Positions 7,851 through 24,972 are shown, numbered from the stretch's first letter. The stretch is DNA of 25,591 bases from Planctomycetota bacterium (GCA_016872755.1 VGZE01000038.1:1-25591); one strand, 5' to 3'. Notes: generated from the letters alone by a model not told the origin. Translations and numbers: made by a program.

Positions 7851-7957
7851 CCGCTTCCGTGTCGTGCGCCTGGGGCTTTCGCCACGGTGTTTTCGCACGC
7901 ACGTCCAAACCTATCGATCAATCCGATCAACGCACAGGAAGAGGAAAGAGAACCTAC

Positions 7958-8308: not shown

Positions 8309-8315
8309 TCCCCTC

Positions 8316-8380: not shown

Positions 8381-8407
8381 CTTTCCGTGCAACGGGCGCG
8401 GCGCGAC

Positions 8408-9400
8408 TCAGTAGCGCGCCGGCGGCTCGGGCTTGTTCGCGACGATCGCCTCGATGCGCGCGAGCACCTCGCCGGACAATTTCGGCAGCGCGTCGAGTGC
8501 CTTCAAATTCTCCGCGAGCTGCTCGCGCTTCGTCGCTCCGAGAATGACCGTGCTGACGCGCGGGTTGAGCGCGCACCATGCGATGGACAGTTGCGCGAGC
8601 GAGCAGCCGAGCTCGCGCGCCAGCACGCCGAGCTCGCGCGCCTTGGCGAGGTTCGCGCGGCCGGCGCTGCTGTCGAGCGCCTCCTCGCGCAGCCACTTGT
8701 ACTCCGGCAGCGCCATGCGCGAACCGGCCGGCACTCCGCCGTCGTACTTGCCGGTCAGCAGACCCGACGCGAGCGGCGACCAGATCGTCGTGCCCAGCCC
8801 GAGCGCGTCGTAGAGCCGCGCGAACTCGCGCTCGACCTTGCGGCGCGCGAACAGGTTGTACTCGGGCTGCTCCATCGTCGGCGGGGCCAGACCCAGGTCG
8901 CGCGCGATCCCGTGGGCCTGCGCGATCTCGTCGGCGCGCCACATGCTCGTGCCCCAGTAGAGGACCTTGCCCTGCGCGACCAGGTCCCCCATCGCGCGCA
9001 CGGTTTCCTCGAGCGGCGTGTCGAGATCGGGCCGGTGGCAGAAGTACAGATCGAGGTACTCGACCTGCAGGCGTTCCAGCGCGTTGTGGCAGCAATCGAC
9101 GACGTGCTTGCGCGACAGTCCCTTCTGGGTCGGCAGCTTGCCGCCCCAGAAGACCTTCGACGACACGCAGTAGCTGTCGCGGCGCCAGCCGAGCGTGCGC
9201 AGCGCGCTGCCCATGATGCGCTCGCTCTCGCCGGCCGCGTAGGCCTCGGCATTGTCGAAGAAATTGACGCCCGCATCGTAGGCCTGCTTCATCAGCTCGG
9301 CGGCGGCGCGCTCGTCGAGTTGCTGCGAGAAGGTGACCCAGGAGCCGAAGGAGAGCAGGGAGAGCTTGAGGCCGCTCTGGCCGAGGCGACGGTACTGCAT
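8408..9400 (-). CDS. Aldo-keto reductase family oxidoreductase (Kv-beta/Tas-like subgroup), 330 aa
   Basis: MQYRRLGQSGLKLSLLSFGSWVTF...GVNFFDNAEAYAAGESERIMG...LDLYFCHRPD...GKVLYWGTSMW...IWSPLASGLLTGKY carries the AKR catalytic tetrad context (D, Y, K, H blocks). It lies 44 nt downstream of the MBOAT-SGNH gene on the same strand. Confidence 0.85.
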   Translation of the reverse strand: MQYRRLGQSGLKLSLLSFGSWVTFSQQLDERAAAELMKQAYDAGVNFFDNAEAYAAGESERIMGSALRTLGWRRDSYCVSSKVFWGGKLPTQKGLSRKHVVDCCHNALERLQVEYLDLYFCHRPDLDTPLEETVRAMGDLVAQGKVLYWGTSMWRADEIAQAHGIARDLGLAPPTMEQPEYNLFARRKVEREFARLYDALGLGTTIWSPLASGLLTGKYDGGVPAGSRMALPEYKWLREEALDSSAGRANLAKARELGVLARELGCSLAQLSIAWCALNPRVSTVILGATKREQLAENLKALDALPKLSGEVLARIEAIVANKPEPPARY

Positions 9401-9444: not shown

Positions 9445-12012
9445 TCAGCGAATCCCGAGCAGCTCGGGCCGCGCCGACAACTCACCGTACAGGCGCGCCG
9501 CGAGCAGTCGATGACCGTTCGCGTTGGCGAGGTGGTACATGTCCGAGATCATGATCTCGGACAGCGCGGGCTCCTGCACACCCTTGCGGATGTCGATGGT
9601 GAGGAAGCCGAGCCGCTCGGCAAGGGAGCGGACCTGGTCGATGCGCATGGTCATGCCGAACTCGACCGTCGCGTCGGCCTCGAACACCGGGACTTCGAGA
9701 TACACGGGGATCGCGCCCATTTCGACGCACGCGCCGTGAAAGCGGCGCAGGGCCCACATCTCGATGTCCTCGAGCACGCCGGCCACCCGGCGACGCACCT
9801 CGCCATCGTCCAGTTCCGGCGTGATGCCGGCCCGCCTGTAGGCGTCCTCGAGCTCGGGCATGAATTCCGGGCGTGTGCGCGCCACGGCGATCAGGTACTT
9901 GATGGTCGACCCGATGTGGTTCGACAGCAGCACGACGTCGGGCTCGTACGCGGCGACCTTGCGTTCGAGCTGGAACATGTGGTGGAACACCGAGTACGCG
10001 GGGACCGAGAAATTCAGGATCTCGTAGCGCAGGCCGTTGACCGAGGACTGCTTCTGGTTCAACTGGAGCTCGACCTGGCGCTCCCAGACCTCCGCGTCGG
10101 AGACCCCCATGCCCATCTCGACGCAAGTGCCGAGCAGCGCGATGCGCCAGGTCCGCGGAGGCTTGCGGAGCTCGTATTCGCGATCGCGCATGCCCGCGCT
10201 ATTGATCGTGTGCTGTTGCCCACCGATCTCGAGCCGCTGCGACGGCGGGAGCTCGAACTCGAGCAGGCCGGGCACGGGGCGCACGATCGCATTGCGCAGG
10301 AACGTCGGCACGTCCTCGGGATCGAACTGCGCGCCCGACCAGGCCCACACCACGCGGCGGTCGCGCTGGATCAGCCGGTCGTAGTACGCGATGCCGTCCG
10401 CATCGGCGTCCTGTCGCGCGCTCGATTCCACGCGCAGCGGAGTCAAGGCCGCCGCGATCGGCGCACCGAGAGCCGCGCTCGCGCGCTCCCAGCCGAGCAG
10501 CAGGAGCAGCGCACAGGCCGCGGCACGCGCCCACGCACCGGCGGATCCGGAGCGCGCCGCGGCGACGGCGCGCGCGAGCTCGGGCCGCAACTGCACCAGC
10601 ACGCCCGCGCCAATGAGCAGCGCGAGCACGCCTGTCAGCACGAACCAGTCCCGCAGCGGGCTCGCGGCGGCCTGCTTCAGCACGCCCGACCACTCGCTCA
10701 GTGATCGGCTCGACCACAGCGACCACAAGAGCGACGTGGTCGCGAACACGCCGAGCACGCGCAGCGCATGGCGCAACGCGGCGCCCAGGCGCGGCGGCGC
10801 CGCCGGCGCGCCCGGCGCCAGCACCGCGGGCCCGGCGGCGCGACGCGCCTCGGCCAGCACGCTCCACAGCGCCAGCAGCGCCGCGACGCCCCAGAACATG
10901 CCGTCCCAGGCCAGCGGCAGCCCGCCCTGCAGGAAGAACCACTGCAGCGCATGCAGCCACCACGTCGCGACGAACACGAGCGCCGTGGACGCCACCAGCG
11001 CGAAGGTCGTCCCCCGCATGCGCAGGCGCATGTAGGCCGGGTAGTAGACGAGCTTCTTCATGAACTCGGTCCAGTAGACGTTCGTGCGCCGCCAGCTGTC
11101 GCTGAAGCTGTGCGCCAGCAGGTACGCGTGGTTCGTCTCGGGGAGCTGGAAGCCGAACAGGTGCAGCATCCCGATCACCAGGTGGAAGTGCCCGGAGATG
11201 CGCAGGTAGAGCAGGTAGCTCGAGCAGACGAACATCAGCACGCCGCCCAGGTCGTGCACGTCGCCGGCGGCCGGGGTCAGGTACGCGTGGACGGCGCGGT
11301 AGGCCAGCAGGTGCAGGATCCCGCGCAGCATCCAGCGCAGCCCGCGCGCGTGGATCTCGCGCGCCGGGGCCGCGTAGTACGTGCGCTGGAAGGTCCGGTA
11401 GTCGACGACCGGAAAGAGCAGGAAGCAGACGTTCGGCAGCAGGAAGAAGTACGCGACGCGCATCCAGATCGACGCGGGCCGCGGCTGCGTGTGCTCGTCG
11501 TACAGGTAGATCGCGCCCCGGAACAGGAACATCGACGCGACCAGCGGTACCACCAGCGACTGCTCCGGCGCGCTGCCTCCGGGAAGGCGCGGCGCCGGGA
11601 TCCAACCGGCGCGCAGCGCGACGAGCAACGCGCCGCATGCGAGCAGGCTCGCGACGCGCCAGCGGATGTGCGCGCGCAGGTTGCACAGCAGGAACAGCAC
11701 TCCACCGAGCACGCCGACCGCCAGTGCATCGACCGGGCCGAGCACGCAGGCGAAGGCCACCGCGCTCAGCGCAACGAAGAACGGCAGCTTCCAGGCACCG
11801 GGCAGCCACGCGTGCACGCAGTAGCCGAGCGCGAGCACCGGCAACACGAGCGGCAGTCCGAGACCGGCCTCCAGTTCCAGCGCCGCGATGGCGCCGCACA
11901 GCATTCCCAGTTGCAGCGCATGCGCGACAAACGCCTTCCAGGCACGGGGTTCTGGTTCCGCATGCACGGGTACCGGCGCTGCATGCGAGGCAAGTGCGAG
12001 CCAACGCCGCAT
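9445..12012 (-). CDS. Fused MBOAT (AlgI/DltB/PatA-like membrane O-acyltransferase) plus C-terminal SGNH (AlgJ/AlgX/PatB/DltD-like) domain protein, 855 aa
   Basis: Start ATG (complement 12010-12012) gives MRRWLALASH. The N-terminal ~470 aa are polytopic and include the MBOAT signature region LPETNHAYLLAHSFSDSWRRTNVYWTEFMKKLVYYPAY (compare AlgI NFNSPY...[21 protein letters not shown]) and a conserved His in ISGHFHLV. The C-terminal ~380 aa have a GDS-like block (IALLGTCVEMGMGVSD) and a DxxH block (SDMYHLANANGHRLLAARLY) of SGNH hydrolases. The upstream 267 codons of the track ORF overlap the methyltransferase gene on the other strand and were trimmed. Confidence 0.75.
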   Translation of the reverse strand: MRRWLALASHAAPVPVHAEPEPRAWKAFVAHALQLGMLCGAIAALELEAGLGLPLVLPVLALGYCVHAWLPGAWKLPFFVALSAVAFACVLGPVDALAVGVLGGVLFLLCNLRAHIRWRVASLLACGALLVALRAGWIPAPRLPGGSAPEQSLVVPLVASMFLFRGAIYLYDEHTQPRPASIWMRVAYFFLLPNVCFLLFPVVDYRTFQRTYYAAPAREIHARGLRWMLRGILHLLAYRAVHAYLTPAAGDVHDLGGVLMFVCSSYLLYLRISGHFHLVIGMLHLFGFQLPETNHAYLLAHSFSDSWRRTNVYWTEFMKKLVYYPAYMRLRMRGTTFALVASTALVFVATWWLHALQWFFLQGGLPLAWDGMFWGVAALLALWSVLAEARRAAGPAVLAPGAPAAPPRLGAALRHALRVLGVFATTSLLWSLWSSRSLSEWSGVLKQAAASPLRDWFVLTGVLALLIGAGVLVQLRPELARAVAAARSGSAGAWARAAACALLLLLGWERASAALGAPIAAALTPLRVESSARQDADADGIAYYDRLIQRDRRVVWAWSGAQFDPEDVPTFLRNAIVRPVPGLLEFELPPSQRLEIGGQQHTINSAGMRDREYELRKPPRTWRIALLGTCVEMGMGVSDAEVWERQVELQLNQKQSSVNGLRYEILNFSVPAYSVFHHMFQLERKVAAYEPDVVLLSNHIGSTIKYLIAVARTRPEFMPELEDAYRRAGITPELDDGEVRRRVAGVLEDIEMWALRRFHGACVEMGAIPVYLEVPVFEADATVEFGMTMRIDQVRSLAERLGFLTIDIRKGVQEPALSEIMISDMYHLANANGHRLLAARLYGELSARPELLGIR

Positions 12013-12045
12013 GCAGGCGAAGATACCATTCCGGATCCTCGCCCC

Positions 12046-12825
12046 ATGGAACACGGCCACTACTCGGCGCTGGCCGGCGCCTATGCGGCGCACCGCGCCG
12101 GCTATGCCGACGCGGTCGCCGGGCGCGTGCTCGCCGCGGCCTGCGCCGCGGCGAACAAACCCGCGCAGGAGCTCGAGGTCGCCGACGTGGGCGCAGGCAC
12201 CGGAATCTGGTCGCGCGTGCTGGCACGCGCAGGCTGCCGGGTCCGCGCGGTCGAGCCGAACGACGCGATGCGCGAGGCCGGCGCTTCGGATCCCGCCAAC
12301 GGCTCGATTCGCTGGCACGGCGGTCGGGCCGAGGCCACCGAGCTCGCGGCCCGTTCCTGCGATCTCGTCACGATGGCATCGGCGTTCCACTGGACCGAGT
12401 TCGAGGCGGCGCTGGCGGAATTCGCGCGCGTGCTGCGCCCGCACGGCGTCTTCGCGGCACTGTGGAACACGCGCATCGTCGACGAGTCGCCGCTGCTCGC
12501 CGAGATCGAGGCGGAACTGCGCCGGCGCGTACCGCACTACGTGCCGCGCTCGTCGGGGCGCTCCGCCTTCTGCGACAGCCTGTCGGAGCGGCTGCGCGCC
12601 TGCGGCCGCTTCGCGCTCGTCGAGACCTGCGAGGGACGCCACGTCGAGGCGCAGAGTCGCGAGCGCTACCTCGGCATCTGGCGCTCGGTCAACGACGTGC
12701 GCGTGCAGGCCGGCGAACAGACCTTCGCCGACTTCCTCGAGTGGCTCGCGTGGCGCCTGCGCGATGTACCGCGGATCGAGGCCCCGTACCTGACGCGCTG
12801 CTGGATCGCGCACCTGTCGACCTAG
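12046..12825 (+). CDS. Class I SAM-dependent methyltransferase (Methyltransf_11/25-like), 259 aa
   Basis: Motif I LEVADVGAGTGIWSRVLA. An acidic residue after beta2 (RVRAVEPNDAM). Post-I DLVTMASAFHW and RVLRPHGVFAA. Divergent from the MBOAT-SGNH gene, with a 33-bp gap. Confidence 0.8.
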   Translation: MEHGHYSALAGAYAAHRAGYADAVAGRVLAAACAAANKPAQELEVADVGAGTGIWSRVLARAGCRVRAVEPNDAMREAGASDPANGSIRWHGGRAEATELAARSCDLVTMASAFHWTEFEAALAEFARVLRPHGVFAALWNTRIVDESPLLAEIEAELRRRVPHYVPRSSGRSAFCDSLSERLRACGRFALVETCEGRHVEAQSRERYLGIWRSVNDVRVQAGEQTFADFLEWLAWRLRDVPRIEAPYLTRCWIAHLST

Positions 12826-12899
12826 TCGGCGCGTGCCGCACGGGGTCTGATAGACTCGCTCGTGCGTCCCCTCGCGCGCTGGTTCGCGCCGGACGAACC

Positions 12900-13469
12900 A
12901 TGGATCCTGCCCACCGGACCGGCGCGCCGACCCAGCAAGGCACCGTGTACTGGCTCACAGGCCTCGCCGGGGTCGGGAAGTCGACGCTGGCCCGGCTGCT
13001 CGCCGCGCGCCTGCGCGCCGCGGGTCGCGCCGTCGTGCTGCTGGACGGCGACGAGCTGCGCGCGCGGCTGTTTCCGGAGGCCGGCTACGCGCGCGAAGAA
13101 CGTCTGATGCTGGCGCGGCGTTACGCCGGCCTGTGCGGCTTGGTGGCAGCGCAGGGTCCGGACGTCGTGTGCGCGACGATCTCGCTGTTTCCGGAGATCT
13201 GGAACGAGAATCGCCGGCTCCTGCCCGCCTATCGCGAGGTGCTGGTGCGCGCGCCGGCCGAGGAGCGCCGCCGGCGCCGGCCCGAGTTGCACGCCGGCAC
13301 GGCCGACTCGCGCGGACCGGTGGTGGGCGCGGAGCTGGCGGCGCCCGAACCGCACGAACCGCACGCCATCCTCGACAATGACGGCCGCCGATCGCCCGAG
13401 CAACTGATCGACGAGCTGTTGGCCGCATTCGCCGCGCGCGGCCCAGCCTGCGGCATGGGGCGGCCGTGA
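12900..13469 (+). CDS. cysC: Adenylyl-sulfate (APS) kinase-like P-loop kinase, 189 aa
   Basis: GTVYWLTGLAGVGKSTLARLL (Walker A in the APS kinase context GxxxWxTGLSGSGKST), followed by LLDGDELR (compare LDGDNVR), ISLFPEIWNENRRL, then YREVLVRAPAEERRRRRP and C-terminal EPHEPHAILDNDGRRSPEQLIDELL. Co-operonic with a sulfotransferase. Confidence 0.8.
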   Translation: MDPAHRTGAPTQQGTVYWLTGLAGVGKSTLARLLAARLRAAGRAVVLLDGDELRARLFPEAGYAREERLMLARRYAGLCGLVAAQGPDVVCATISLFPEIWNENRRLLPAYREVLVRAPAEERRRRRPELHAGTADSRGPVVGAELAAPEPHEPHAILDNDGRRSPEQLIDELLAAFAARGPACGMGRP

Positions 13470-15811
13470 GCCTCGCGCTCGAATTCCCGACCTGGACCAA
13501 GGCCGAGGCGCTCGAGCAGCTGGCGCCGCGGCTCGCCTGCGCGCGCGTGCTGCCGCAGGTTCGCACGGACGTCCGCGGCTGGCGCGCCGATCCCGACGCC
13601 GTGCTGGCGCTCGTCCGCGCGCGCGGCTGGCTCGACCAGCCGCTGATCGTGCGCAGTAGCGCGCGCGGCGAGGATCAGGCCGGTGCCTCGCTCGCGGGCC
13701 GTTTCCCGTCGATTCGCGACTGCCGCGGCGAGGCGGCGCTGCGCTCGGCCATCGAGCAGGTCGCCGCCGCCTTGCCGGCCGACGACGACCAGCTCTTCGT
13801 CCAACCCTGCCTGTGCGATGTGCGCTCCAGCGGCGTCGTGTTCACGCGCGATCCCGGCAGCGGCGGCCACTATGCGATCGTCGCCTACGACCAGCGCTCC
13901 GGACGCACCGACCTGATCACGTCCGGGCGCGCGGTCGAGCCGCGCACGTACCTGCACCACGAGAGCGCTCCGCCCGCGGCCGATCCCGAGCTGGTGCGCG
14001 TGCTCGAGCTGTCGCGCGAGTTGCAGCGCTTGCTCGAGTGCGCGGCGCTGGACATCGAGTATGCGTGTGTCGACGACGGCCTGCCCTACCTGCTGCAGGT
14101 GCGCGCGCTGGCCGCCGCGGCGGGCGCGCCAGCCGAGGCCGACGAAGAGGCCCGCGCGCTGCGCCGCGTGCAGCGGCGCGTCGAAGAACTCGGGGGCCCG
14201 CATCCGTACCTGCTCGGCGGTGCGCCGATCTTCGGCGCGATGCCGGATTGGAATCCGGCCGAGGTGCTGGGCGCGCGCCCGCGCCCGCTCGCGTTGTCCT
14301 TGTACCGCGAGCTGGTCACCGACGGGATCTGGGCCTACCAGCGGCGCAACTACGGCTATCGCGACTTGCGCAGCTTCCCGCTCGTGCATTCCTTTGCCGG
14401 GCTGCCCTACGTCGACGTGCGCGTGAGTTTCCACTCCTTCGTGCCGGCGGACCTCGGTGACGAGCTCGGCGGCCGGCTGGTCGACGAGTACGCGCACCGT
14501 CTGCTGGCCCGGCCGCCCGACCACGACAAGGTCGAGTTCTCGATCGTGGACTCGTGCGCGACGTTGGACCTGGAGCAGCGCCTGGCGCGCCTGCCGGCCG
14601 CGCGCTTCTCCCCCGCCGATCGCGCGCGCATCGCGGATTCGCTGCGCACGCTGACCAATCGCATCACGTCCGGTCCGCAGTGCTTGTTCCGGCTCGACCT
14701 CGACAAGATCGCGGCGCTCGAGCGCCGTCAGCAGGAATTCGCCGGCCGCGCCGCTGGGCTCGATCCGCTGTCGCGCGCGTACTGGCGCCTGGAGGACTGC
14801 AAGCGCTACGGAACGCTGCCCTTCGCCGGCATCGCGCGCGCGGCGTTCATCGCGCTGCAGATCCTCGATTCGCTGGTCGGCACGGGCCTGCTCGAGCGCG
14901 CGGAGCGCGAGCTCGTGCTGCACTCGTCCGACAGCGTGCGCGCCCGGATGGACCGCGACCTCGCGATGCTGCCGCGCGCGCAGTTCCTGGCGCGCTACGG
15001 CCACCTGCGGCCCGGCACCTACGAGGTCACGACGCCGCGCTACGACGAAGCGCCCGATGCGTATTTCGGTGCGCCGGGCGGCGGCGCCGCGCGTGCCGAG
15101 CCGCCGCACCGGCGTTTCGAACTCGACGCGCCGCGCAAGCGCCGCCTCGATGCCGAACTCGCCGCGCAGGGCCTCGCGCACGACGCGCGCTCGCTGTTCG
15201 AGTTCTTCTACGATGCGATCGAGGGGCGTGAGCACGCCAAGTTCGTCTTCACGCGCAGCCTCAGCGACGCGCTGGTCGATCTGGTCGAGGTGGCGCGCAA
15301 CGCCGGCTTCTCGCGCGACGACCTCAGCTACGCTGAATTCGATGCGCTGCGCGGCCTGCATTCGAGCTGCGACGATCCGCGAGCGGTGCTGGAGCGCTCG
15401 ATAGAGGCCGGTCGCGCGCGTCACGCCGTCACGCGCCGCCTGACGCTGCCCGCGCTGATCACCGCTCCGTCCGACGTGCTGGCCTTCCACCTGTCGCCGA
15501 GCGAGCCCAACTACGTCGGGCAGGCGCGCGTGGAGGGCCCGGCGCTCGCCGCAGCCTGTGCCGGGGAGAGCCTGCGCGGCGCCATCGTGCTGCTGCCGAA
15601 CGCCGACCCCGGACACGATTGGATCTTCGCGCACGGCGTGGCCGGCTTCGTCACGCAGTACGGCGGTTACAACTCGCACATGGCGGTGCGCGCCCTCGAA
15701 CTCGGCGTCCCCGCGGTGATCGGCGCCGGCGAGGAGCTGTATCGACGCTGGTCGCTGGCGCGACGGCTGCGCCTGGACTGCTTGAACCGCAAGGTCGAGG
15801 TGCTGGCATGA
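13466..15811 (+). CDS. PEP-utilizing enzyme, PEP synthase / pyruvate-phosphate dikinase-like phosphotransferase, 781 aa
   Basis: GTG start overlaps the cysC stop (GTGA). N-terminal PPDK_N-like nucleotide-binding region (VRSSARGEDQAGASLAGRFPSI compares with SSATAEDLPDASFAGQ). C-terminal phosphohistidine mobile domain (GGYNSHMAVRALELGVPAVIGAGE compares with GGRTSHAAIIARELGIPAVVG). There is no PEP mutase signature. Confidence 0.8.
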   Translation: MSLALEFPTWTKAEALEQLAPRLACARVLPQVRTDVRGWRADPDAVLALVRARGWLDQPLIVRSSARGEDQAGASLAGRFPSIRDCRGEAALRSAIEQVAAALPADDDQLFVQPCLCDVRSSGVVFTRDPGSGGHYAIVAYDQRSGRTDLITSGRAVEPRTYLHHESAPPAADPELVRVLELSRELQRLLECAALDIEYACVDDGLPYLLQVRALAAAAGAPAEADEEARALRRVQRRVEELGGPHPYLLGGAPIFGAMPDWNPAEVLGARPRPLALSLYRELVTDGIWAYQRRNYGYRDLRSFPLVHSFAGLPYVDVRVSFHSFVPADLGDELGGRLVDEYAHRLLARPPDHDKVEFSIVDSCATLDLEQRLARLPAARFSPADRARIADSLRTLTNRITSGPQCLFRLDLDKIAALERRQQEFAGRAAGLDPLSRAYWRLEDCKRYGTLPFAGIARAAFIALQILDSLVGTGLLERAERELVLHSSDSVRARMDRDLAMLPRAQFLARYGHLRPGTYEVTTPRYDEAPDAYFGAPGGGAARAEPPHRRFELDAPRKRRLDAELAAQGLAHDARSLFEFFYDAIEGREHAKFVFTRSLSDALVDLVEVARNAGFSRDDLSYAEFDALRGLHSSCDDPRAVLERSIEAGRARHAVTRRLTLPALITAPSDVLAFHLSPSEPNYVGQARVEGPALAAACAGESLRGAIVLLPNADPGHDWIFAHGVAGFVTQYGGYNSHMAVRALELGVPAVIGAGEELYRRWSLARRLRLDCLNRKVEVLA

Positions 15812-16425
15812 AGACCGTGCTCGTCTCGCAGCGCGTCGAGATCGCTGCTCCGAGCGGCGAGCGCCGCGACGCGCTGGCCCAGGACTGGCACGCTTTCCTG
15901 GCGCGCTGCGGATTGGCGCCGATCCTGGTCCCCAACCACGCGGGCAACGCGCGGGCCCTGCTCGGAGCGCCGCACTGCGGCGTGCTGCTGACCGGCGGCA
16001 ACGACCTCGCCAGCCTGGGCGGCGACGCGCCCGAGCGCGACGAGGTCGAGCGCTTGCTGGTCGAGCACGCACTCGCGGCGCGCCTGCCGGTGCTGGGCGT
16101 GTGCCGAGGAATGCAGTTCCTGGTCGATCGCTGCGGCGGCGCGCTGCAGCCCGTGGACGGTCACGTCACGCAGCAGCAGTGGATCGAAGTGGACGGCCGG
16201 CGCGAGCTGGTCAACAGCTACCATCGCTACGGCTGTCGCGCGGTGCCGCCCGAGCTCGAGGTCTGGGCGCGCGCGGACGACGGAGTGGTCGAGGCGGTGC
16301 GCCACCGCGCGCTGCCGCTGGTCGGGATCATGTGGCACCCCGAGCGCTTCGCGTCGCCGCGCGCAGCGGACGTCGAGCTGTTCCGCCGCGTGTTCGGCGC
16401 GCGCGGTCCGGAGGCGGCCCCATGA
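15808..16425 (+). CDS. Class I glutamine amidotransferase-like protein (peptidase C26 / PuuD gamma-glutamyl hydrolase family), 205 aa
   Basis: ATG overlaps the upstream stop (ATGA). Nucleophile elbow LPVLGVCRGMQFL. His/Glu block GIMWHPE. Size and motifs fit a stand-alone GATase-1/C26 hydrolase. Confidence 0.75.
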   Translation: MKTVLVSQRVEIAAPSGERRDALAQDWHAFLARCGLAPILVPNHAGNARALLGAPHCGVLLTGGNDLASLGGDAPERDEVERLLVEHALAARLPVLGVCRGMQFLVDRCGGALQPVDGHVTQQQWIEVDGRRELVNSYHRYGCRAVPPELEVWARADDGVVEAVRHRALPLVGIMWHPERFASPRAADVELFRRVFGARGPEAAP

Positions 16426-17156
16426 GGGCGCTGATTCTCGCCGCCGGCCGTGGCAGCCGGATGGGCGCGGCCACCGAGCACGGCCCCAAGGGCATGCTCG
16501 AAGTGCTGGGCCGACCGCTGCTGGCCTGGCAAATCGACGCGCTGCGCGCGGCGGGCGCGAGCGAGATCGCGATCGTGCGCGGCTACCGCGGCGAAGCCCT
16601 GCGCTTCGACGTGCGCTACTACGACAACCCGCGCTGGGAGAGCACGAACATGGTCGCGTCGCTCGGCTGCGCCGCCGAGTGGCTGCGCGCAGGCCCCTGC
16701 CTGGTTTCGTACGCGGATCTGGTCTATCCGCCCGAGGCGCCGCGCCGACTGGCCGAGACCGCCGCGCCGATCGCGCTCTTGTACGACGCGCACTGGCGGG
16801 AATTGTGGTCGCAGCGCTTCGCCGATCCGCTCGACGACGCGGAAGCGCTGCGCCTGGACGCGCGCGGGCGTGTGCTCGAGATCGGAGGCCGCCCGCGCGA
16901 CTACGCGCGCATCGAGGGACAGTACATGGGCCTGTTCCAGCTCACGCCCGAGGGCGCCGAACGGCTGTTCGCGCGCAGCGCCGAACTCGAGCCGGCCGCG
17001 CGCGACCGGCTCGACATGACGACGCTCTTCGCGCGCTGCGTGCGCGCGGGCGACGAGCTGCACGCCGTGCGCTACGACGGCTGGTGGTGCGAGATCGACC
17101 AGCCCTCCGACCTCGCGCTGGCCGAGCGGATCGCGGCCCAGGGGACGGCCCGTTGA
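16422..17156 (+). CDS. MobA-like nucleotidyltransferase (NTP_transf_3; sugar/phospho-alcohol nucleotidylyltransferase, LicC/CofC-like), 244 aa
   Basis: ATG overlaps the upstream stop (ATGA). N-terminal MRALILAAGRGSRMG...KGMLEVLGRPLLAWQIDAL is the G-x-G-x-R NTP-binding loop of MobA/LicC/GlmU-type nucleotidyltransferases. Confidence 0.75.
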   Translation: MRALILAAGRGSRMGAATEHGPKGMLEVLGRPLLAWQIDALRAAGASEIAIVRGYRGEALRFDVRYYDNPRWESTNMVASLGCAAEWLRAGPCLVSYADLVYPPEAPRRLAETAAPIALLYDAHWRELWSQRFADPLDDAEALRLDARGRVLEIGGRPRDYARIEGQYMGLFQLTPEGAERLFARSAELEPAARDRLDMTTLFARCVRAGDELHAVRYDGWWCEIDQPSDLALAERIAAQGTAR

Positions 17157-18004
17157 GACCCGAGAATCGCTCGCGCCTCGGACCACACGACGTCGTGCTG
17201 GCCGCGCACCCGGGCTCGGGTTCGAGCTGGATCGGCACGCTGCTCGTCGAACTCGGCCTGTTCTACGCATCGGGCCACGAGGAGCGGCTGCTCGACTCGA
17301 GCAGCCAGCGCAGCGAGCCCTGGATCGAGGCGGGAACGGCTCCGGCAGCCGGGCTCGCGCGCCCGCGCCTGGCGCGCGCGGAACGCGCCCGGCACCTGCC
17401 GTCGCTGCACGAGCGCGACGCGCGCCACCCGAGCTTTCGCGAGCCGGTCCGCGTCGTGTTGAGCAACGACAGCGCGCTGGGCTGGAAGTGCGAGCGGCCG
17501 GTCGTGCTGCTGGTGCGCGACGGCCGCGATGCGCTCCTGTCGCTGTACCAGCACCTGGTGGGGTTCAGCGGTCTGCAGGCGTCCTTCGCCGAGTACCTGG
17601 CCGGCGGCGGCGGCGCCTGGCCGCCGCCCGCGCACAGTTGGGCGGTCGCCAACCTGAGCTGGCTCGACGCGACGCCGCGCGAGCGCCTGCTCGTGCTGAC
17701 CTTCGAAAGCTGTCGGGCCGATCCGCTCGCGCGCTTTCGCGAGCTGACCGGGTTCCTCGGCGCGCCGCGCAGCGACGCGGAACTCGAGCGCGCGATCGCG
17801 GCGAGCAGCTACGACGCGATGCGCCAGGCGGAGGAGCGCGCCCTCGGCCCCGAGGCCGCCGCCGCGAACGCTCCGCGCTTCATGCGCCGGGGCCGCATCG
17901 GCGAATGGCGCGAGGTCTACGACGCCGCGTTGCTGACGCGCTTTTCGGGCCTGCCGCGCCGCGCGCTCGAGCGCTTCGGCTACCCGACCGCCGAGATCCC
18001 CTGA
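17153..18004 (+). CDS. PAPS-dependent sulfotransferase, 283 aa
   Basis: TTG start overlaps the upstream stop (TTGA); a GTG about 45 nt downstream is an alternative. 5'-PSB loop HPGSGSSWIGTLL (compare PKSGTTW). 3'-PB motif LVRDGRDALLSLYQH (compare RNPRDVxVSxYHF). C-terminal FESCRADPLARFRELTGFLG (compare YEDLKxDPxxEIxKIxxFLG). Confidence 0.75.
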   Translation: MRPENRSRLGPHDVVLAAHPGSGSSWIGTLLVELGLFYASGHEERLLDSSSQRSEPWIEAGTAPAAGLARPRLARAERARHLPSLHERDARHPSFREPVRVVLSNDSALGWKCERPVVLLVRDGRDALLSLYQHLVGFSGLQASFAEYLAGGGGAWPPPAHSWAVANLSWLDATPRERLLVLTFESCRADPLARFRELTGFLGAPRSDAELERAIAASSYDAMRQAEERALGPEAAAANAPRFMRRGRIGEWREVYDAALLTRFSGLPRRALERFGYPTAEIP

Positions 18005-19941
18005 GTCGCGCCGGCGAACGCCTCGACGACGGTGCAGCGCGGCTCGATCAACGCGAGCTCCTGCACCGATTGCGTGCAGATCCAGGTGTGCAGGAAGGCG
18101 GTCTGCTTCGGCATCAGGAACACCTGTCCGGTGCGGTGATCGACCCGGATCAGGTGATCGCCGGGCGCGAGCAGGTCGGGCTCGAGCGGCGCCCCGATGC
18201 GCAGCGCGTGCACGAGTCGCGGGAAATCGTACGGCGAGCGCAGCTTGAGCTCGCGGTGGCGCAGTTCGACCAGCGTGAGCGCTTCGAGCGGCACGCCCAG
18301 CTCGGTCTTGGTCTGCATGAACAGATAGGGTCGGCAGGCGAGGTCGTACTCGACCGCGGCGCGCAGCAGCGCACCGTGCGGACCCGCAAACCACTCGGGG
18401 CGCGTTGCCACGTACGCGACCAGCAACCGATCGAACTCGGCGCGCTGCGCGTGCATCGCCGCGTCGGCCAGCTCGCCGCGCCACATGTACTTGACCATGT
18501 CCTCGAAGCACTCGAGCTGATTGCGCCAGCGCTCCGCGAAAGGCCCGCTCGCCTGCGTGTCCATCCAGCGCGAGAACTGGTCCACCTCGTCGCGGAAGCG
18601 CGCGATGCCGAGCCGGTCGAGCAGCTGCAGCGTCGCATACAGTCCGCGACAATCGTTCAGCAGGAACAGTGCGATCGCGAAGCGCAATCCGGCGATGTAG
18701 TCAGGGAACGGAACCTCGCGCGTGGAGACGACGATCTCCCCGCCCGTCGCCGGGTCGTCCTCGGGCAGCAGCGTGACGCCGTATTCCTCGGTGTGCTCGC
18801 GATAGCCGGTGTTGTTCAGCCACATCAGCGGGTAGACCAGGAATCCCTGAGCGCCCCTGCGCAGCAGGTCGTCGATGCCGTCCTTGAAGCTGTCGAGCGT
18901 CTCGCCGGGCATCGGCCACAGGAGCTCGACCATCGACGCCCGACGGTGCTCGTTCAGGTGGCGCTGGATGCGCGTGTAGGGTTCGCGCTCGAGTCCCGTG
19001 CGGCGCGCACGTTCCAGCACTTCCTTGCTCATCGACTGCAGCGAGAACATGTGCCGCGAGAGCATGCCGGCGTCGGCGACGAGATTCGAGATCTGCTCTA
19101 CGCGCTCGGGCTTCACCTTCGAGCTGTTGAACAGGATGCGCTTGAGATTGCCGTACTTGCGCGAGACCGCGACGATCTGCTCGGCGATCTCGAGGTCGCG
19201 CGGCAGGATGCCGAAGTTCGCGTCGGTCAGCGACATCACGCGGATGCCGCGCTTGCCGATCCACTCGAGCTCCTCGCGCAGCCGCCCCAGGTCCTGCTGG
19301 TAGATCTTCTGTCCGATGGCGCCGCCCCAGTAGCAGAACTCGCACGCGAATGGGCAGCCCCGATTGGTCTCGAACAGCGCGATCTCGATGTGGCCCACCT
19401 CGTCGAAGACGCCGCTCAGCCACGGCGACGGCAGCTCGGACAGGTCCTGCACGCGCGGCGGCCCCGGCGTCGTGACGAACTGGCCGTCGCGCGCGAAGGT
19501 CAGCCCGCCCACGCGCTGCCAATCGGGCCTCGACTCGCTGAGTTCGAGCAGCACGTCGCGGAACGGCCGCTCGCCCTCCGAGTTGCACACGGCCACGTTC
19601 TCCCAGCCGGTCTGCACGAAACGCGGAGCGACGTTCATCACTTCGACGCCGCCGAGCAGGAAGCGCGTGCGCGGCAGCAACCCGCGCAACGTCGGGAGCA
19701 GCCGCCGCACGATGCCGGCGTTCCACGTGTACACGCTGAACGCGACGAGATCGGGGTTGCGCGCCACCAGATCGCGGATCACGTACGAGGCCTTGACCGT
19801 GTTTTGCTGCCGGTACAGCTCGACGTTCCAGGTCGCGCGCACTTGTGGGTCCGCCATCGCGAACGCCTTCAAGTAGCCGCCGACGAGCGGCGACAGTCGG
19901 GCGAGCCCGTCGAGGTGCACGATGACCGCGTTGCGCTTCAT
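17980..19941 (-). CDS. B12-binding (class B) radical SAM enzyme, paralog 2, 653 aa
   Basis: Start ATG (complement 19939-19941) gives MKRNAVIVHLDG, preceded by GAAGG. B12-binding N-terminus. CxxxCxxC in RGCPFACEFCYWG. Long C-terminal extension. Same architecture as the 5740-7299 gene. The upstream 89 codons of the track ORF were trimmed. Confidence 0.85.
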   Translation of the reverse strand: MKRNAVIVHLDGLARLSPLVGGYLKAFAMADPQVRATWNVELYRQQNTVKASYVIRDLVARNPDLVAFSVYTWNAGIVRRLLPTLRGLLPRTRFLLGGVEVMNVAPRFVQTGWENVAVCNSEGERPFRDVLLELSESRPDWQRVGGLTFARDGQFVTTPGPPRVQDLSELPSPWLSGVFDEVGHIEIALFETNRGCPFACEFCYWGGAIGQKIYQQDLGRLREELEWIGKRGIRVMSLTDANFGILPRDLEIAEQIVAVSRKYGNLKRILFNSSKVKPERVEQISNLVADAGMLSRHMFSLQSMSKEVLERARRTGLEREPYTRIQRHLNEHRRASMVELLWPMPGETLDSFKDGIDDLLRRGAQGFLVYPLMWLNNTGYREHTEEYGVTLLPEDDPATGGEIVVSTREVPFPDYIAGLRFAIALFLLNDCRGLYATLQLLDRLGIARFRDEVDQFSRWMDTQASGPFAERWRNQLECFEDMVKYMWRGELADAAMHAQRAEFDRLLVAYVATRPEWFAGPHGALLRAAVEYDLACRPYLFMQTKTELGVPLEALTLVELRHRELKLRSPYDFPRLVHALRIGAPLEPDLLAPGDHLIRVDHRTGQVFLMPKQTAFLHTWICTQSVQELALIEPRCTVVEAFAGATQGISAVG

Positions 19942-20071
19942 GATCCGGCCTTCAGGTTCCGCGACGCCTCTCGCCGGCAGCGGCGAGCAGCCAGCCGAGC
20001 GGGGCAGCGCGACACTGTCTACTCTACCGCCGAATGCTAGGATCGGCGCGCGGGCTGCAGCCGGCCCGGTC

Positions 20072-20329
20072 ATGGAATCGCCCGAGATCGCCGCTCGCGT
20101 GCGCCAGATCCTGCTCGATGGGGTCTTGCGCGGCAGCAACCCCGCCCTGCTGCAGGACTCGACACCGCTGCTTTCCGGCGGCGTGCTCGACTCGGTGCGC
20201 ATGGTCACGCTGATCTCCGACCTCGAGCGCGCCTTCGGCGTCAGCTTCGAGGCCTTCGAAATGAGCGTCGACTACCTCGACTCGATCGCGATCATCGCGC
20301 GCACGATCCGCGACAAGAAGACGGGGTGA
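20072..20329 (+). CDS. Acyl carrier protein (phosphopantetheine-binding), 85 aa
   Basis: Phosphopantetheine attachment context GGVLDSVRMVTLISDLERAFGV (DSx Ser with a flanking helix II). Size fits an ACP. Directly upstream (4-nt gap) of the acyl-AMP ligase. Divergent from radical SAM paralog 2 across a 130-bp region. Confidence 0.75.
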   Translation: MESPEIAARVRQILLDGVLRGSNPALLQDSTPLLSGGVLDSVRMVTLISDLERAFGVSFEAFEMSVDYLDSIAIIARTIRDKKTG

Positions 20330-20333
20330 TCCG

Positions 20334-22055
20334 TTGGCCGAGACGCTGCAAGGCCGGCTGCGCGCGCGACTCGACGAGGCTCCCGCCGCACGCGCACTGG
20401 CCTGCATCGACGCGCGTGGGGCCGCGATCTGGTGGACGCGCGCAGAGCTGCATGCGGAGGCCGCGCGCTGCGCCGCGCGGATGGGCGAACTGGGACTGCG
20501 CGCGGGCGACGTCGTCGTGCTCGTGTGCGTCGATCCGCGCGAGGCCGCGCTCGGGGCCCTCGGGGCCTGGCGGGCCGGGGCGATCCCGCTGCTGGTCGCG
20601 CCCCCGACGATCCAGGGCCTGAACTCGAGCCTCGCTACGATCCTGCGCCACGCGTTGGCGCGCACCGAGGCGCGCCTGCTGGTGCTGACGCGCGCGGCCG
20701 CGCCGCGTGCCGACGAGCTCGCGGCCGCGCTGCCCGGACTGCGCATCGAGCGCGGCTTCGAAACCCTGCTCGCGCCCGCGCAGCCGGCCATCTCCGTCGA
20801 GCCGGGACTGATCGAACCACGCGACGCCGGCACCGCCGCGGCGCTGCAGCTCAGCTCCGGCACGACGCGCCTGCCGCGCATCGCGCGCTGGAGCCACGCG
20901 CGCCTGCTCTGCGCGCTCGACGGCATGGCGCAGGGAATGAACCTCGCGAGCGACGACGTGTACGCGAATTGGACGCCGCTCTACCACGACATGGGACTGG
21001 TCAACAACCTGCTCACGTGCCTGGTGCGCGGCATCCCGCTCGCGCTCCTGTCTCCGCTAGACGTCGTGCGCAGCCCGTCGCTGTGGTTGCGCGCGCTCGA
21101 ATCGACCGGCGCGACCCAGACCTGGTCGCCGAACTTCGGGTACGCGCTGGCGGCCGAGCGCTGCCGCGACGAGGAGCTCGCGGGCCTCGATCTCTCGCGC
21201 GTGCGCGGTTTCTGGAACGCCGCCGAGCGCGTGCACGTCTCGACCTTCGAGCGCTTCCTGGCGCGCTTCGCGCGCCACGGGGTGCGGCGGGACGCCTGCC
21301 GCACCAACTTCGGCTGCGTCGAGACGATCGGCGGCGCGACCTTCAGCGCGCGCTCGGCCGCGCTCGCCACCGAGCGACTGGACCTCGACGTGCTGCGCGA
21401 GCAGCGCGTCGCGCGCGCCGCTGACCCCACGACGCGGCGCGCGCAGACCTACGTCGGCTGCGGGCGCGTGCACCCGCTGCTCGAGTTGGCGGTCTTCGAT
21501 CCCGCGGGACGCGCGCTGCCCGACGGCCATGTCGGGACGCTCGGGTTCCGTGGCCGGGCGCGCTTCGACGGCTACCTCGGCGACGAGGAGGCCGCGCACA
21601 ACGTGCTGCGCGACGAGTGGGTGCTGCCCGGCGACGAAGGCTACCTGCGCGACGGCGAGCTGTACTGGACCGGGCGGCGCGACGAGCGCATCAACCTGCA
21701 GGGCAAGAAGCTCGATCCGAGCGAGCTCGAGCCGGTGCTGCTGGCCGTCGAGGGCCTGCGCAAGGGCTGTTTCTGCGCCTTCGGCGCCGAGGACGAGACG
21801 CGCGGCACGCAGGTGCTCGTCGTCGCCAGCGAGGTTGAGCCGGAGGCCGAGGCGGACCTGGCCGGGCTCGCGGCGCGCGCGCGCGCGGCGCTGTCGCGCG
21901 AGCTCGGGCTGGCGGTCGAGGAATTGCTGCTCGTGCGCAAGGGCACGCTGGCGAAGACGTCCAGCGGCAAGCGGCGGCATCTCCATTTCCGCGACCTCTT
22001 CGCGCGCGGCGAGCTGGAGGCGCTGCACGTGTCGCGCGCGGGGAGCCTTGGATAG
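20334..22055 (+). CDS. Fatty acyl-AMP ligase (FAAL) / AMP-dependent synthetase-ligase, 573 aa
   Basis: TTG start 4 nt after the ACP stop. AMP-binding motif A3 LQLSSGTTRLPRIA (compare SSGTTGxPKG). A5-like block NWTPLYHDMGL. A8-like PGDEGYLRDGELYWTGRRDERINLQGKKLDPSELE. The N-terminus and ACP pairing are typical of FAAL-type loaders rather than CoA ligases. Confidence 0.8.
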   Translation: MAETLQGRLRARLDEAPAARALACIDARGAAIWWTRAELHAEAARCAARMGELGLRAGDVVVLVCVDPREAALGALGAWRAGAIPLLVAPPTIQGLNSSLATILRHALARTEARLLVLTRAAAPRADELAAALPGLRIERGFETLLAPAQPAISVEPGLIEPRDAGTAAALQLSSGTTRLPRIARWSHARLLCALDGMAQGMNLASDDVYANWTPLYHDMGLVNNLLTCLVRGIPLALLSPLDVVRSPSLWLRALESTGATQTWSPNFGYALAAERCRDEELAGLDLSRVRGFWNAAERVHVSTFERFLARFARHGVRRDACRTNFGCVETIGGATFSARSAALATERLDLDVLREQRVARAADPTTRRAQTYVGCGRVHPLLELAVFDPAGRALPDGHVGTLGFRGRARFDGYLGDEEAAHNVLRDEWVLPGDEGYLRDGELYWTGRRDERINLQGKKLDPSELEPVLLAVEGLRKGCFCAFGAEDETRGTQVLVVASEVEPEAEADLAGLAARARAALSRELGLAVEELLLVRKGTLAKTSSGKRRHLHFRDLFARGELEALHVSRAGSLG

Positions 22056-24968: not shown

Positions 24969-24972
24969 CTGC

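What the first reader, a model, noticed from the sequence alone, without database searches (positions are those of the whole stretch)
9445..22055. Candidate uncharacterised biosynthetic cluster coupling fatty-acyl loading, PAPS-dependent sulfation, radical SAM chemistry and O-acylation
Within ~12.6 kb (plus a second radical SAM at 5740-7299) the sequence encodes a FAAL plus stand-alone ACP, which is the usual entry point for lipid or lipopeptide assembly. It also encodes an APS kinase plus sulfotransferase (making and using PAPS), two class B radical SAM enzymes, a SAM methyltransferase, an MBOAT-SGNH O-acyltransferase, a PEP-utilizing phosphotransferase, a GATase-1/C26-like protein, a MobA-like nucleotidyltransferase and an aldo-keto reductase. 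No PKS, NRPS or glycosyltransferase is present. I do not recognise this gene combination as any well-known pathway (mycobacterial sulfolipid-1, hopanoid, alginate or teichoic acid loci). A sulfated and possibly C-methylated/acylated lipid-type product is a reasonable guess, but that is inference.
Basis: partly seen in the sequence, partly recalled or inferred. Interest (0 to 1): 0.85.

Follow-up and report, generated by a model that had tools for sequence, protein, structure and literature searches.

The report
Phosphoramidate, not sulfate, acyl-decoration gene cluster
This is a real, conserved ten-gene cluster in a Planctomycetota genome, but its supposed sulfation genes match the pathway that makes the rare O-methyl-phosphoramidate group known from Campylobacter capsules, here joined to a sulfotransferase-like enzyme and a carrier-protein system that probably exports a fatty acyl group.

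Summary
The same set recurs, mostly in the same order, in other Planctomycetota and in a Myxococcota MAG. The aldo-keto reductase and the radical SAM gene at 5740-7299 are not part of the conserved set.

The sulfation reading is probably wrong. The APS-kinase-like, PEP-utilizer, GATase and MobA-like genes form a translationally coupled block. They match the four Campylobacter jejuni enzymes (Cj1415-Cj1418) that make 3'-phospho-CDP-amidate, the PAPS-like donor of O-methyl phosphoramidate (MeOPN), and a methyltransferase sits beside them. In most relatives the kinase is fused to the glutamine kinase.

The "sulfotransferase" has the sulfotransferase fold and the 3'-phosphate-binding motifs. It lacks the catalytic lysine (invariant Gly) and, in this protein, the catalytic histidine (Asn). 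Proteins of this loop type lay next to the cassette in 15 of 15 loci, including two chosen blind to context. Eight canonical Lys/Arg-type relatives did not.

The FAAL, carrier protein and MBOAT-SGNH protein form a Dlt-like acyl-export module.

Best reading: an acyl or envelope decoration carrying a (methyl)phosphoramidate. The acceptor is unknown, and no direct comparison with C. jejuni sequences was possible.

The parts
9445..11904 (-). g10: 819-aa membrane protein with an N-terminal MBOAT (DltB-like) domain and a C-terminal SGNH/GDSL-like domain. The predicted SGNH nucleophile is Cys594.
   Evidence: No Pfam or NCBIfam hit. Homologues are named DltB/AlgI by IMG and many carry PF13472. The AF2 model has pLDDT 84. 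Foldseek top hits are DltB 6bug/8jem, HHAT and PORCN, then GDSL esterases. H241 and H318 are invariant and N275 nearly so.
12046..12825 (+). g11: class I SAM methyltransferase, the candidate O-methylase of the phosphoramidate.
   Evidence: Methyltransf_11 at 4e-17. A homologous methyltransferase sits inside every cassette examined.
12900..13469 (+). g12: APS-kinase-fold kinase, the candidate cytidine diphosphoramidate 3'-kinase (Cj1415-like).
   Evidence: PF01583 at 6e-20. NF004041 scores 129.5 bits (cut-off 127), while TIGR00455 apsK scores only 71.5 bits against 138.7. It overlaps g13 by 4 bp. It is fused to the glutamine-kinase homologue in L001 and in most family members.
13466..15811 (+). 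g13: glutamine-kinase homologue (Cj1418-like) with PPDK_N and PEP-utilizer mobile domains.
   Evidence: NF004508 scores 821 bits (cut-off 501). Relatives at 52-53% identity are named 'glutamine kinase' by IMG.
15808..16425 (+). g14: class I GATase/C26 hydrolase, the candidate gamma-glutamyl-CDP-amidate hydrolase (Cj1417-like).
   Evidence: The best NCBIfam match is NF045546 at 109 bits and E 3e-31; the next family scores 58 bits, and the cut-off of 250 is not reached. A member of its 90% cluster is named 'N5-(cytidine 5'-diphosphoramidyl)-L-glutamine hydrolase' by IMG.
16422..17156 (+). g15: MobA-like nucleotidyltransferase, the candidate CTP:phosphoglutamine cytidylyltransferase (Cj1416-like).
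   Evidence: NTP_transf_3 at 2e-21. It is always adjacent to the GATase gene in the cassettes.
17153..18004 (+). g16: sulfotransferase-fold protein of the 'P-G-S-G' clade, the candidate phosphoramidate transferase. The TTG start at 17153 is supported by the conserved N-terminus MRPENR.
   Evidence: Sulfotransfer_1 at 2e-16. The AF2 model has pLDDT 89.6, and its top hits are SULT2B1/SULT1E1 at TM about 0.6. The motif alignment shows Lys replaced by invariant Gly21 and His replaced by Asn105, with the 3'-phosphate motifs kept. It is adjacent to the cassette in all loci of this clade.
17980..19941 (-). g17: class B (B12-binding) radical SAM enzyme, probably a C-methyltransferase. It is an accessory member of the cluster.
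   Evidence: B12-binding plus Radical_SAM. The KedN5-family model scores 303 bits, below the cut-off of 700. CPFACEFC is present. It is present in L001, L005, L009, L010 and L030 and absent in L003, L011 and L028.
20072..20329 (+). g18: 85-aa acyl carrier protein.
   Evidence: PP-binding at 1.4e-3. The G-x-L-D-S motif with Ser41 is invariant across orthologues and across the carrier proteins of cassette-free MBOAT-SGNH modules.
20334..22055 (+). g19: fatty acyl-AMP ligase-type adenylating enzyme that loads g18.
   Evidence: AMP-binding at 2e-40. The best NCBIfam families are FAAL models (PRK09192, 263 bits, below cut-off); the amino-acid adenylation model scores far lower. It is always next to the carrier gene.

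Best explanation
The region is a conserved ten-gene cluster built from two modules.

Module A (g11-g16, one translationally coupled operon) is a phosphoramidate pathway. In the proposed route, g13 phosphorylates the amide nitrogen of glutamine with ATP. g15 joins the product to CMP from CTP. g14 hydrolyses off glutamate to leave CDP-amidate. g12 phosphorylates its 3'-OH to give 3'-phospho-cytidine-5'-diphosphoramidate, which is an analogue of PAPS. g16, a sulfotransferase-fold enzyme that keeps the 3'-phosphate pocket but has lost the sulfuryl-transfer Lys and His, then transfers the phosphoramidate to a hydroxyl and releases 3',5'-CDP. g11 O-methylates the group to give O-methyl phosphoramidate.

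Module B works like the Dlt system. g19 adenylates a fatty or hydroxy-fatty acid and loads it on the carrier protein g18. g17 C-methylates it. The MBOAT domain of g10 passes the acyl group across the membrane to its SGNH-like domain, and from there to an extracytoplasmic acceptor.

The most likely product is an acyl group or envelope component carrying a (methyl)phosphoramidate rather than a sulfate.

Shown here: the gene content, the folds, the motifs and the conserved linkage. Inferred: every substrate, g16 as the transferase, and whether the phosphoramidate goes on the carrier-bound acyl group or on the final acceptor.
For: Cluster conservation:
- The same genes are co-linear in Planctomycetaceae MAGs and an ENA contig, and are shuffled but present in L003 and L028.

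Identity of the donor pathway:
- g13 passes NF004508 (821 bits), and its 52-53% relatives are named glutamine kinase.
- The best family for g14 is the Cj1417 model, and an IMG cluster-mate carries that enzyme name.
- g12 fails apsK and is fused to the glutamine kinase in L001 and in most of the 120 listed homologues.
- g12 to g16 overlap one another by 4 bp.
- The literature assigns exactly these four enzyme types to 3'-phospho-CDP-amidate synthesis.

g16:
- It has the SULT fold.
- 'YPKSGTTW' aligns to 'HPGSGxSW' with invariant Gly, and the 3'-PB and RxGxxGxW motifs are kept.
- 51 of 64 alignable nearest representatives have Gly at the Lys position.
- Eight cassette-free relatives have FP[KR]SG.
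- Fisher's test on 15/15 against 0/8 gives p = 2e-6. The counts were compiled by hand from the loci, and the loci are not phylogenetically independent.

Module B:
- DltB and GDSL folds, invariant His318, the carrier Ser41, and the same three-gene module in cassette-free loci.
Against: - No C. jejuni sequence could be compared directly, so the orthology rests on family models and on names given by IMG.
- g14 is below its NCBIfam cut-off.
- I could not show that NF004041 is the Cj1415 family.
- The C. jejuni MeOPN transferases are about 600-aa proteins, not 283-aa sulfotransferase-like ones, so there is no precedent for g16's proposed activity.
- His is retained in many Gly-type relatives, so the loss of His is not general.
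- Some cassettes (L006) have no recognisable sulfotransferase-like neighbour.
- Nothing identifies the acceptor, and no gene in the window obviously makes the hydroxyl that would be modified.
- The two modules could be decorating different targets.
Confidence: 0.6

Rival explanations
1. g12 is a true APS kinase that makes PAPS, and g16 is a true sulfotransferase that sulfates a FAAL/ACP-derived lipid. The PEP-utilizer, GATase and nucleotidyltransferase genes do unrelated tailoring.
For: The Pfam and NCBI names are APS_kinase and Sulfotransfer_1. g16 keeps the 3'-phosphate-binding motifs of PAPS enzymes and has the SULT fold. The nearest solved relatives of g12 are APS kinases.
Against: g12 fails the apsK model and is coupled or fused to a glutamine-kinase homologue. 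The catalytic Lys of the 5'-phosphosulfate loop is an invariant Gly, and His108 is Asn in g16. The three 'extra' genes are exactly the remaining enzymes of the phosphoramidate route. There is no ATP sulfurylase in the window. Canonical Lys/Arg-type relatives never carry the cassette.
Confidence: 0.1
2. A mixed model. The cassette makes the phosphoramidate donor, but g16 is not the transferase. It could sulfate with housekeeping PAPS, or it could only bind or recycle the 3',5'-bisphosphate nucleotide. The phosphoramidate would then be transferred by another protein, encoded elsewhere or not recognised here.
For: The known MeOPN transferases of C. jejuni are much larger proteins. L006 has a cassette without a sulfotransferase-like gene. 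L013 carries an additional canonical PRSGST sulfotransferase domain in the same polypeptide.
Against: In the compact loci L007, L056 and L055 the sulfotransferase-like gene is the only candidate transferase beside the cassette. The strict link between the Gly-type loop and the cassette is hard to explain if the donor were PAPS.
Confidence: 0.15
3. The two modules are neighbours that decorate different targets, or the same polymer independently. On this view there is no phosphoramidate-bearing acyl group and the cluster is a 'decoration island'.
For: Each module occurs alone elsewhere. The cassette plus the sulfotransferase-like gene occur without FAAL, ACP or MBOAT in L007, L013, L014, L055 and L056. 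FAAL, ACP and MBOAT-SGNH occur without the cassette in L025 and L026, inside polysaccharide loci.
Against: The two modules stay together through gene-order shuffling in L003 and L028. The MBOAT-SGNH proteins of the co-linear clusters form their own clade with a Ser-to-Cys change at the nucleophile. No polysaccharide genes lie near any of these clusters.
Confidence: 0.15

Closest known systems
O-methyl phosphoramidate (MeOPN) locus of Campylobacter jejuni (cj1415-cj1422)
   Same: It has the same four enzyme types for the donor: a PEP-utilizer-type glutamine kinase, a MobA-like cytidylyltransferase, a GATase-type hydrolase and an APS-kinase-fold 3'-kinase. Small SAM methyltransferases of about 257 aa sit adjacent. 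The donor is a PAPS-like 3'-phosphonucleotide.
   Different: The host phylum differs (Planctomycetota and Myxococcota rather than Campylobacterota). There is no capsule or glycosyltransferase context. The transferase candidate is a 283-aa sulfotransferase-fold protein rather than the roughly 600-aa Cj1421/Cj1422. The cassette is joined to a FAAL/ACP/MBOAT-SGNH module and a B12 radical SAM enzyme.
PAPS-dependent cytosolic sulfotransferases (SULT1E1, SULT2B1 and relatives)
   Same: The fold is the same (TM about 0.6). The 3'-phosphate-binding R...S motif, the RxGxxGxW(K/R) loop and the P-loop-like 5' loop are all present.
   Different: The catalytic Lys of the 5'-phosphosulfate loop is an invariant Gly. 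The catalytic His is Asn in the window protein. The clade is linked to the phosphoramidate cassette and not to sulfate-activation genes.
Dlt D-alanylation system (DltA, DltC, DltB, DltD)
   Same: It combines an adenylating enzyme, a small carrier protein with a Ppant serine, an MBOAT with the conserved histidine, and an SGNH-like extracytoplasmic domain. DltB is the best structural match of g10.
   Different: The adenylating enzyme is of the FAAL type rather than a D-alanine ligase. MBOAT and SGNH are fused in one 819-aa protein. The SGNH nucleophile is Cys. The host is Gram-negative-type and has no teichoic acid.
CurM/olefin-synthase sulfotransferase acting on ACP-bound 3-hydroxyacyl groups
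   Same: A sulfotransferase-fold enzyme sits next to carrier-protein-bound acyl chemistry. This gives a precedent for modifying a hydroxyl on an ACP-tethered acyl chain (from my own knowledge of that system).
   Different: There is no PKS and no thioesterase. g16 is a free-standing protein, and the donor is probably not PAPS.

Membership tests
MeOPN donor pathway (Cj1415-Cj1418 type) | Glutamine kinase of the PEP-utilizer/PPDK_N type | tested here: met
   NF004508 scores 821 bits against a cut-off of 501. Relatives at 52-53% identity are named 'glutamine kinase' by IMG.
MeOPN donor pathway (Cj1415-Cj1418 type) | Gamma-glutamyl-CDP-amidate hydrolase (class I GATase) | tested here: inconclusive
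   NF045546 is the best family (109 bits, E 3e-31) but is below its cut-off of 250. A 90%-cluster member carries the enzyme's IMG name.
MeOPN donor pathway (Cj1415-Cj1418 type) | CTP:phosphoglutamine cytidylyltransferase (MobA-like) | tested here: inconclusive
   NTP_transf_3 at 2e-21. No specific model or solved structure under that name was found. Position in the cassette is conserved.
MeOPN donor pathway (Cj1415-Cj1418 type) | APS-kinase-fold kinase dedicated to the pathway | tested here: met
   It overlaps the glutamine-kinase gene by 4 bp. It is fused to it in L001 and in most homologues. It fails the canonical apsK model. Substrate was not tested.
MeOPN donor pathway (Cj1415-Cj1418 type) | Direct sequence orthology to the C. 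jejuni proteins | not testable with these tools
   No C. jejuni sequence could be obtained.
MeOPN donor pathway (Cj1415-Cj1418 type) | Cj1421/Cj1422-type transferase (about 600 aa) | not tested
   No sequence was available. No roughly 600-aa protein of unknown function lies in the cluster.
PAPS-dependent sulfotransferase | Sulfotransferase fold with 3'-phosphate-binding motifs | tested here: met
PAPS-dependent sulfotransferase | Catalytic Lys/Arg in the 5'-phosphosulfate-binding loop (PKSGTTW) | tested here: not met
   Invariant Gly21 in 27 of 27 orthologues, aligned to Lys of SULT1B1/1E1.
PAPS-dependent sulfotransferase | Catalytic base His (KTH motif) | tested here: not met
   Asn105 in the window protein; mostly Asn in orthologues and His in more distant Gly-type relatives. 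This rests on motif alignment, not on a superposition.
Adenylyl-sulfate kinase CysC | Score above the trusted cut-off of the apsK equivalog | tested here: not met
   TIGR00455 scores 71.5 bits against 138.7. The protein passes only the NF004041 subfamily, 129.5 against 127.
Dlt-type carrier-dependent MBOAT acylation | Adenylating enzyme, carrier protein with Ppant Ser, MBOAT with conserved His, and an SGNH-like partner | tested here: met
Dlt-type carrier-dependent MBOAT acylation | D-alanine as the transferred group | not testable with these tools
   The best models for g19 are fatty acyl-AMP ligases, not DltA, so the system works like Dlt but is not filed as Dlt.
Class B radical SAM methyltransferase (KedN5 family) | B12-binding domain plus CxxxCxxC radical SAM core, with the family score above cut-off | tested here: inconclusive
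   The domains and the motif are present. NF033712 scores 303 bits against a cut-off of 700.
Mycobacterial sulfolipid-1 type locus | PKS, Pap acyltransferases and an MmpL transporter with Stf0 | tested here: not met
   None of these domains is present in the window.

The most novel reading that the evidence does not exclude
A distinct clade of sulfotransferase-fold enzymes (5' loop P-G-S-G instead of P-K/R-S-G) has switched donor from PAPS to 3'-phospho-CDP-amidate and transfers phosphoramidate. If so, P-N-bonded (MeOPN-type) decorations are not a Campylobacter peculiarity. They would be made in several bacterial phyla, and in this Planctomycetota cluster they would go onto a carrier-protein-borne, C-methylated acyl group that a Dlt-like MBOAT-SGNH protein exports to the cell envelope.
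Probability: 0.45. Interest if true: 0.85.

Novelty: new variant of a known kind. Interest (0 to 1): 0.74.

Why it matters
[quoted passage not shown] Its transfer step had not been worked out biochemically as of 2025.

This cluster and its relatives show the donor cassette in Planctomycetota, Myxococcota, Rhodocyclaceae and Alphaproteobacteria MAGs. They also nominate a small, soluble and easily expressed candidate transferase, which makes the transfer chemistry directly testable.

If confirmed, this would add a new reaction to the sulfotransferase superfamily. It would also point to an unknown class of P-N-containing envelope lipids or acyl decorations in environmental bacteria.

There is a practical warning too. 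Automatic annotation as "adenylyl-sulfate kinase" plus "sulfotransferase" misleads sulfur-cycle and natural-product mining.

Tried and rejected
- Pfam and NCBIfam on g10 gave nothing, even at E up to 10. Homologues and a fold search were needed.
- At first I read the 'WRRTN' motif of g10 as loss of the MBOAT catalytic His. I rejected this because the His that is invariant across MBOATs corresponds to H318, which is invariant here, and the first site is Asn or Asp in other MBOATs.
- PDB sequence searches with g12-g15 found no Cj1415-Cj1418 structures.
- Four Raushel-lab papers were not held.
- The first look-up of g16 failed because the gene start differs from the deposited call.
- One context look-up landed on a 1.3-kb contig and told nothing.
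- The 239-aa neighbour of the L006 cassette is not a diverged sulfotransferase (hhalign probability 2%).
- The weak similarity of g18 to the 'ACP for OlsHI' model led to the planctomycete ornithine-lipid pathway. There is no OlsH or OlsI homologue here and the score is below cut-off, so I rejected that link.
- Sulfolipid-1, CurM-type olefin synthase, alginate and teichoic acid loci were rejected for lack of their defining genes.
- The aldo-keto reductase is a Kv-beta-type enzyme and is not conserved with the cluster.
- The radical SAM gene at 5740-7299 matches no specific family and is also not conserved with the cluster.
Full report
**Gene map.** The window has about 70% G+C, so open frames are abundant and misleading. 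A third-position GC frame plot and start-codon inspection give 21-22 real genes.
- g10, 9445-11904(-): an 819-aa membrane protein.
- g11, 12046-12825(+): a Methyltransf_11 protein.
- g12, 12900-13469(+): an APS_kinase-family protein.
- g13, 13466-15811(+): a PPDK_N/PEP-utilizer protein.
- g14, 15808-16425(+): a Peptidase_C26/GATase protein.
- g15, 16422-17156(+): an NTP_transf_3 protein.
- g16, 17153-18004(+): a Sulfotransfer_1 protein.
- g17, 17980-19941(-): a B12-binding radical SAM protein.
- g18, 20072-20329(+): an 85-aa carrier protein.
- g19, 20334-22055(+): a FAAL-type AMP-binding enzyme.

Genes g12 to g16 overlap each other by 4 bp. The window is a whole metagenomic contig. The same proteins are deposited for a Planctomycetota MAG under the names adenylyl-sulfate kinase, phosphoenolpyruvate synthase, gamma-glutamyl-GABA hydrolase, phosphocholine cytidylyltransferase family and sulfotransferase domain protein.

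**Is it a unit?** g16 has only about 28 close relatives (47-92% identity) among 5.8 billion protein clusters, followed by a drop to 30%. Their contexts, together with genome and metagenome scans using the family alignment, show the same ten genes in several arrangements:
- co-linear in two Planctomycetaceae MAGs (L001/L012, L010) and an ENA contig (L005);
- partly visible on cut contigs (L009, L027, L029, L030);
- present in shuffled order in L003/L004 and L028;
- partly present in a Myxococcota MAG (L011).

The aldo-keto reductase (a Kv-beta-type enzyme) and the radical SAM gene at 5740-7299 have no counterpart in any of these loci.

**What the "sulfation" half is.** The NCBIfam scan gave the lead.
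- g13 passes NF004508 with 821 bits.
- The best family for g14, by a wide margin, is gamma-glutamyl-CDP-amidate hydrolase, although the score is below the cut-off.
- g12 fails the canonical apsK model.

In C. jejuni, Cj1418 (glutamine kinase), Cj1416 (cytidylyltransferase), Cj1417 (hydrolase) and Cj1415 (kinase) make CDP-phosphoramidate 3'-phosphate from glutamine, ATP and CTP. This compound is the likely donor of the O-methyl phosphoramidate decoration. Methyltransferase genes lie beside them.

The g13 family is very large in metagenomes. IMG names many members glutamine kinase, and most are about 973-aa fusions of an APS_kinase domain to the glutamine-kinase body. The Planctomycetaceae orthologue in L001 is such a fusion. 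An IMG member of g14's 90% cluster is named N5-(cytidine 5'-diphosphoramidyl)-L-glutamine hydrolase. The window has no ATP sulfurylase.

Together with g11 they reproduce the gene content of cj1415-cj1420. I could not obtain C. jejuni sequences for a direct comparison, so this orthology rests on family models and source names.

**The sulfotransferase-like protein.** Its AF2 model (pLDDT 89.6) matches cytosolic sulfotransferases at TM about 0.6 and 15-19% identity. A profile alignment to SULT1B1 and SULT1E1, together with the family alignments, shows three things:
- The 3'-phosphate motif (RDGRDxxxS) and the RxGxxGEWR loop are conserved.
- The loop that holds the phosphosulfate reads HPGSGxSW where SULTs read YPKSGTTW. 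By established knowledge of this family, that Lys is the catalytic Lys48. Here it is an invariant Gly.
- The KTH histidine is Asn in the window protein. It is mostly Asn in the orthologues and is retained in more distant relatives.

An exhaustive profile search of 1.84 billion representatives found 63 proteins at E up to 1e-30. Among the best 148, the Lys position is Gly in 51 of the 64 that align there and Arg in 3.

The sulfotransferase-like genes beside the cassette in other settings also lack the Lys/Arg. These are L013 in Rhodocyclaceae (fused to a second, canonical sulfotransferase domain, TPR repeats and a methyltransferase), L014 in Planctomycetia and L007 in Alphaproteobacteria. By contrast, eight more distant homologues with no cassette nearby all read FP[KR]SGNT.

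As a prospective test I took two Gly-type representatives, chosen only because they lie on long contigs. Both sit beside a complete APS_kinase / methyltransferase / PEP-utilizer / GATase / NTP_transferase cassette. One of them also has an Inositol_P (CysQ-like) gene immediately upstream; by analogy with PAP removal, that gene could dispose of 3',5'-CDP. My hand count from these loci is 15 of 15 for the Gly/Ser-type against 0 of 8 for the Lys/Arg-type (Fisher p = 2e-6; the loci are not phylogenetically independent).

My inference is that this clade uses the cassette's PAPS-like product and transfers phosphoramidate. No paper in the held library joins 'glutamine kinase' with 'sulfotransferase'. 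The known C. jejuni transferases are proteins of about 600 aa.

**The lipid half.**
- g10 has no family hit, but its homologues are called DltB or AlgI, and many carry an SGNH domain.
- Its model (pLDDT 84) matches DltB, HHAT and PORCN in the N-terminal part and GDSL esterases in the C-terminal part.
- His241 and His318 are invariant, and the first MBOAT site is Asn275.
- The carrier protein keeps an invariant GxLDS serine.
- g19 scores best against FAAL models.
- More distant g10 homologues lie next to an AMP-binding gene, an 85-87-aa carrier gene and an acyl-CoA dehydrogenase inside polysaccharide loci.

The adenylating enzyme, carrier and MBOAT-SGNH therefore form a recurrent Dlt-like module in their own right. 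g17 is a class B radical SAM enzyme nearest the KedN5 C-methyltransferase family, below cut-off, and it is missing from three cluster variants. One variant carries a FadB-like hydratase/dehydrogenase instead, which hints at a 3-hydroxyacyl intermediate.

**Mechanism and limits.** The best-supported model has two modules. In the first, glutamine, ATP and CTP are converted to 3'-phospho-CDP-amidate; g16 moves the phosphoramidate to a hydroxyl and g11 methylates it. In the second, a fatty acid is loaded on the carrier, C-methylated, and handed through the MBOAT-SGNH protein to an acceptor outside the cytoplasm.

Whether the phosphoramidate sits on the carrier-bound acyl group or on the final acceptor is unknown. 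The two modules do occur separately elsewhere, so independent action cannot be excluded. Every substrate assignment is inference.

**Verdict.** The sulfation interpretation is probably wrong. The cluster is best described as a new variant of the MeOPN system, with a new candidate transferase type and a new lipid-like context.

Noticed in passing
window 9445-11904 (residue 594 of g10); L002, L005 against L003, L025, L026: The predicted SGNH nucleophile is Cys in the window protein and its eight closest homologues, which are the co-linear clusters that contain the radical SAM gene. It is Ser in all 20 more distant family members and in the shuffled L003 cluster.
   Followed up: partly
L056/L057 9159-10004: An Inositol_P (CysQ-like bisphosphate nucleotidase family) gene lies immediately upstream of, and overlaps, a Gly-type sulfotransferase-like gene beside a full phosphoramidate cassette. 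It may remove the 3',5'-CDP by-product.
   Followed up: no
homologues of window 13466-15811; L001 5678-8611: Most glutamine-kinase homologues in soil and sediment metagenomes are about 973-aa fusions with an N-terminal APS-kinase-like domain. One is from 'Candidatus Sulfotelmatobacter kueseliae'. Public annotation calls them adenylyl-sulfate kinase or PEP synthase.
   Followed up: partly
L013 9998-12913: In a Rhodocyclaceae MAG, a 971-aa protein joins a Gly-type sulfotransferase-like domain, a canonical PRSGST sulfotransferase domain, TPR repeats and a Methyltransf_11 domain. It lies next to the cassette and to a further sulfotransferase-like gene.
   Followed up: partly
L025 817-4625: A cassette-free MBOAT-SGNH/carrier/AMP-binding module lies a few kb from two APS-kinase-like genes, a PAPS reductase and two sulfatases.
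   Followed up: no
window 5740-7299: A second class B radical SAM gene (CPEPCSFC) has only weak, non-specific family matches (HpnJ, BchE, P-methylase models, all far below cut-off). It has no counterpart in related loci, and its role is unknown.
   Followed up: partly
window 5172-5585: An RsfS (ribosome silencing factor) homologue has a coding signal that begins near 5170, but the first in-frame ATG/GTG/TTG found in the interval searched (5050-5300) is at 5280. Earlier in-frame starts back to 4449 were not examined, so the start is unresolved.
   Followed up: no
window 7300-7950: This roughly 650-bp stretch has mixed frame signals. The 80-aa ORF at 7509-7751 and the 291-aa ORF at 7672-8547 match no family. 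An HU-like gene with a strong ribosome-binding site follows at 7958-8308.
   Followed up: partly
window 17153-18004: The deposited gene calls for the sulfotransferase-like gene disagree (269 aa in IMG, 399 aa in NCBI). The conserved N-terminus MRPENR in 27 orthologues supports the TTG start at 17153 (283 aa), which overlaps the stop of the preceding gene by 4 bp.
   Followed up: yes
window 22100-25591: An ECF sigma factor, an 805-aa Ser/Thr kinase and an FG-GAP repeat protein follow the cluster. They are not conserved next to it in other genomes.
   Followed up: partly
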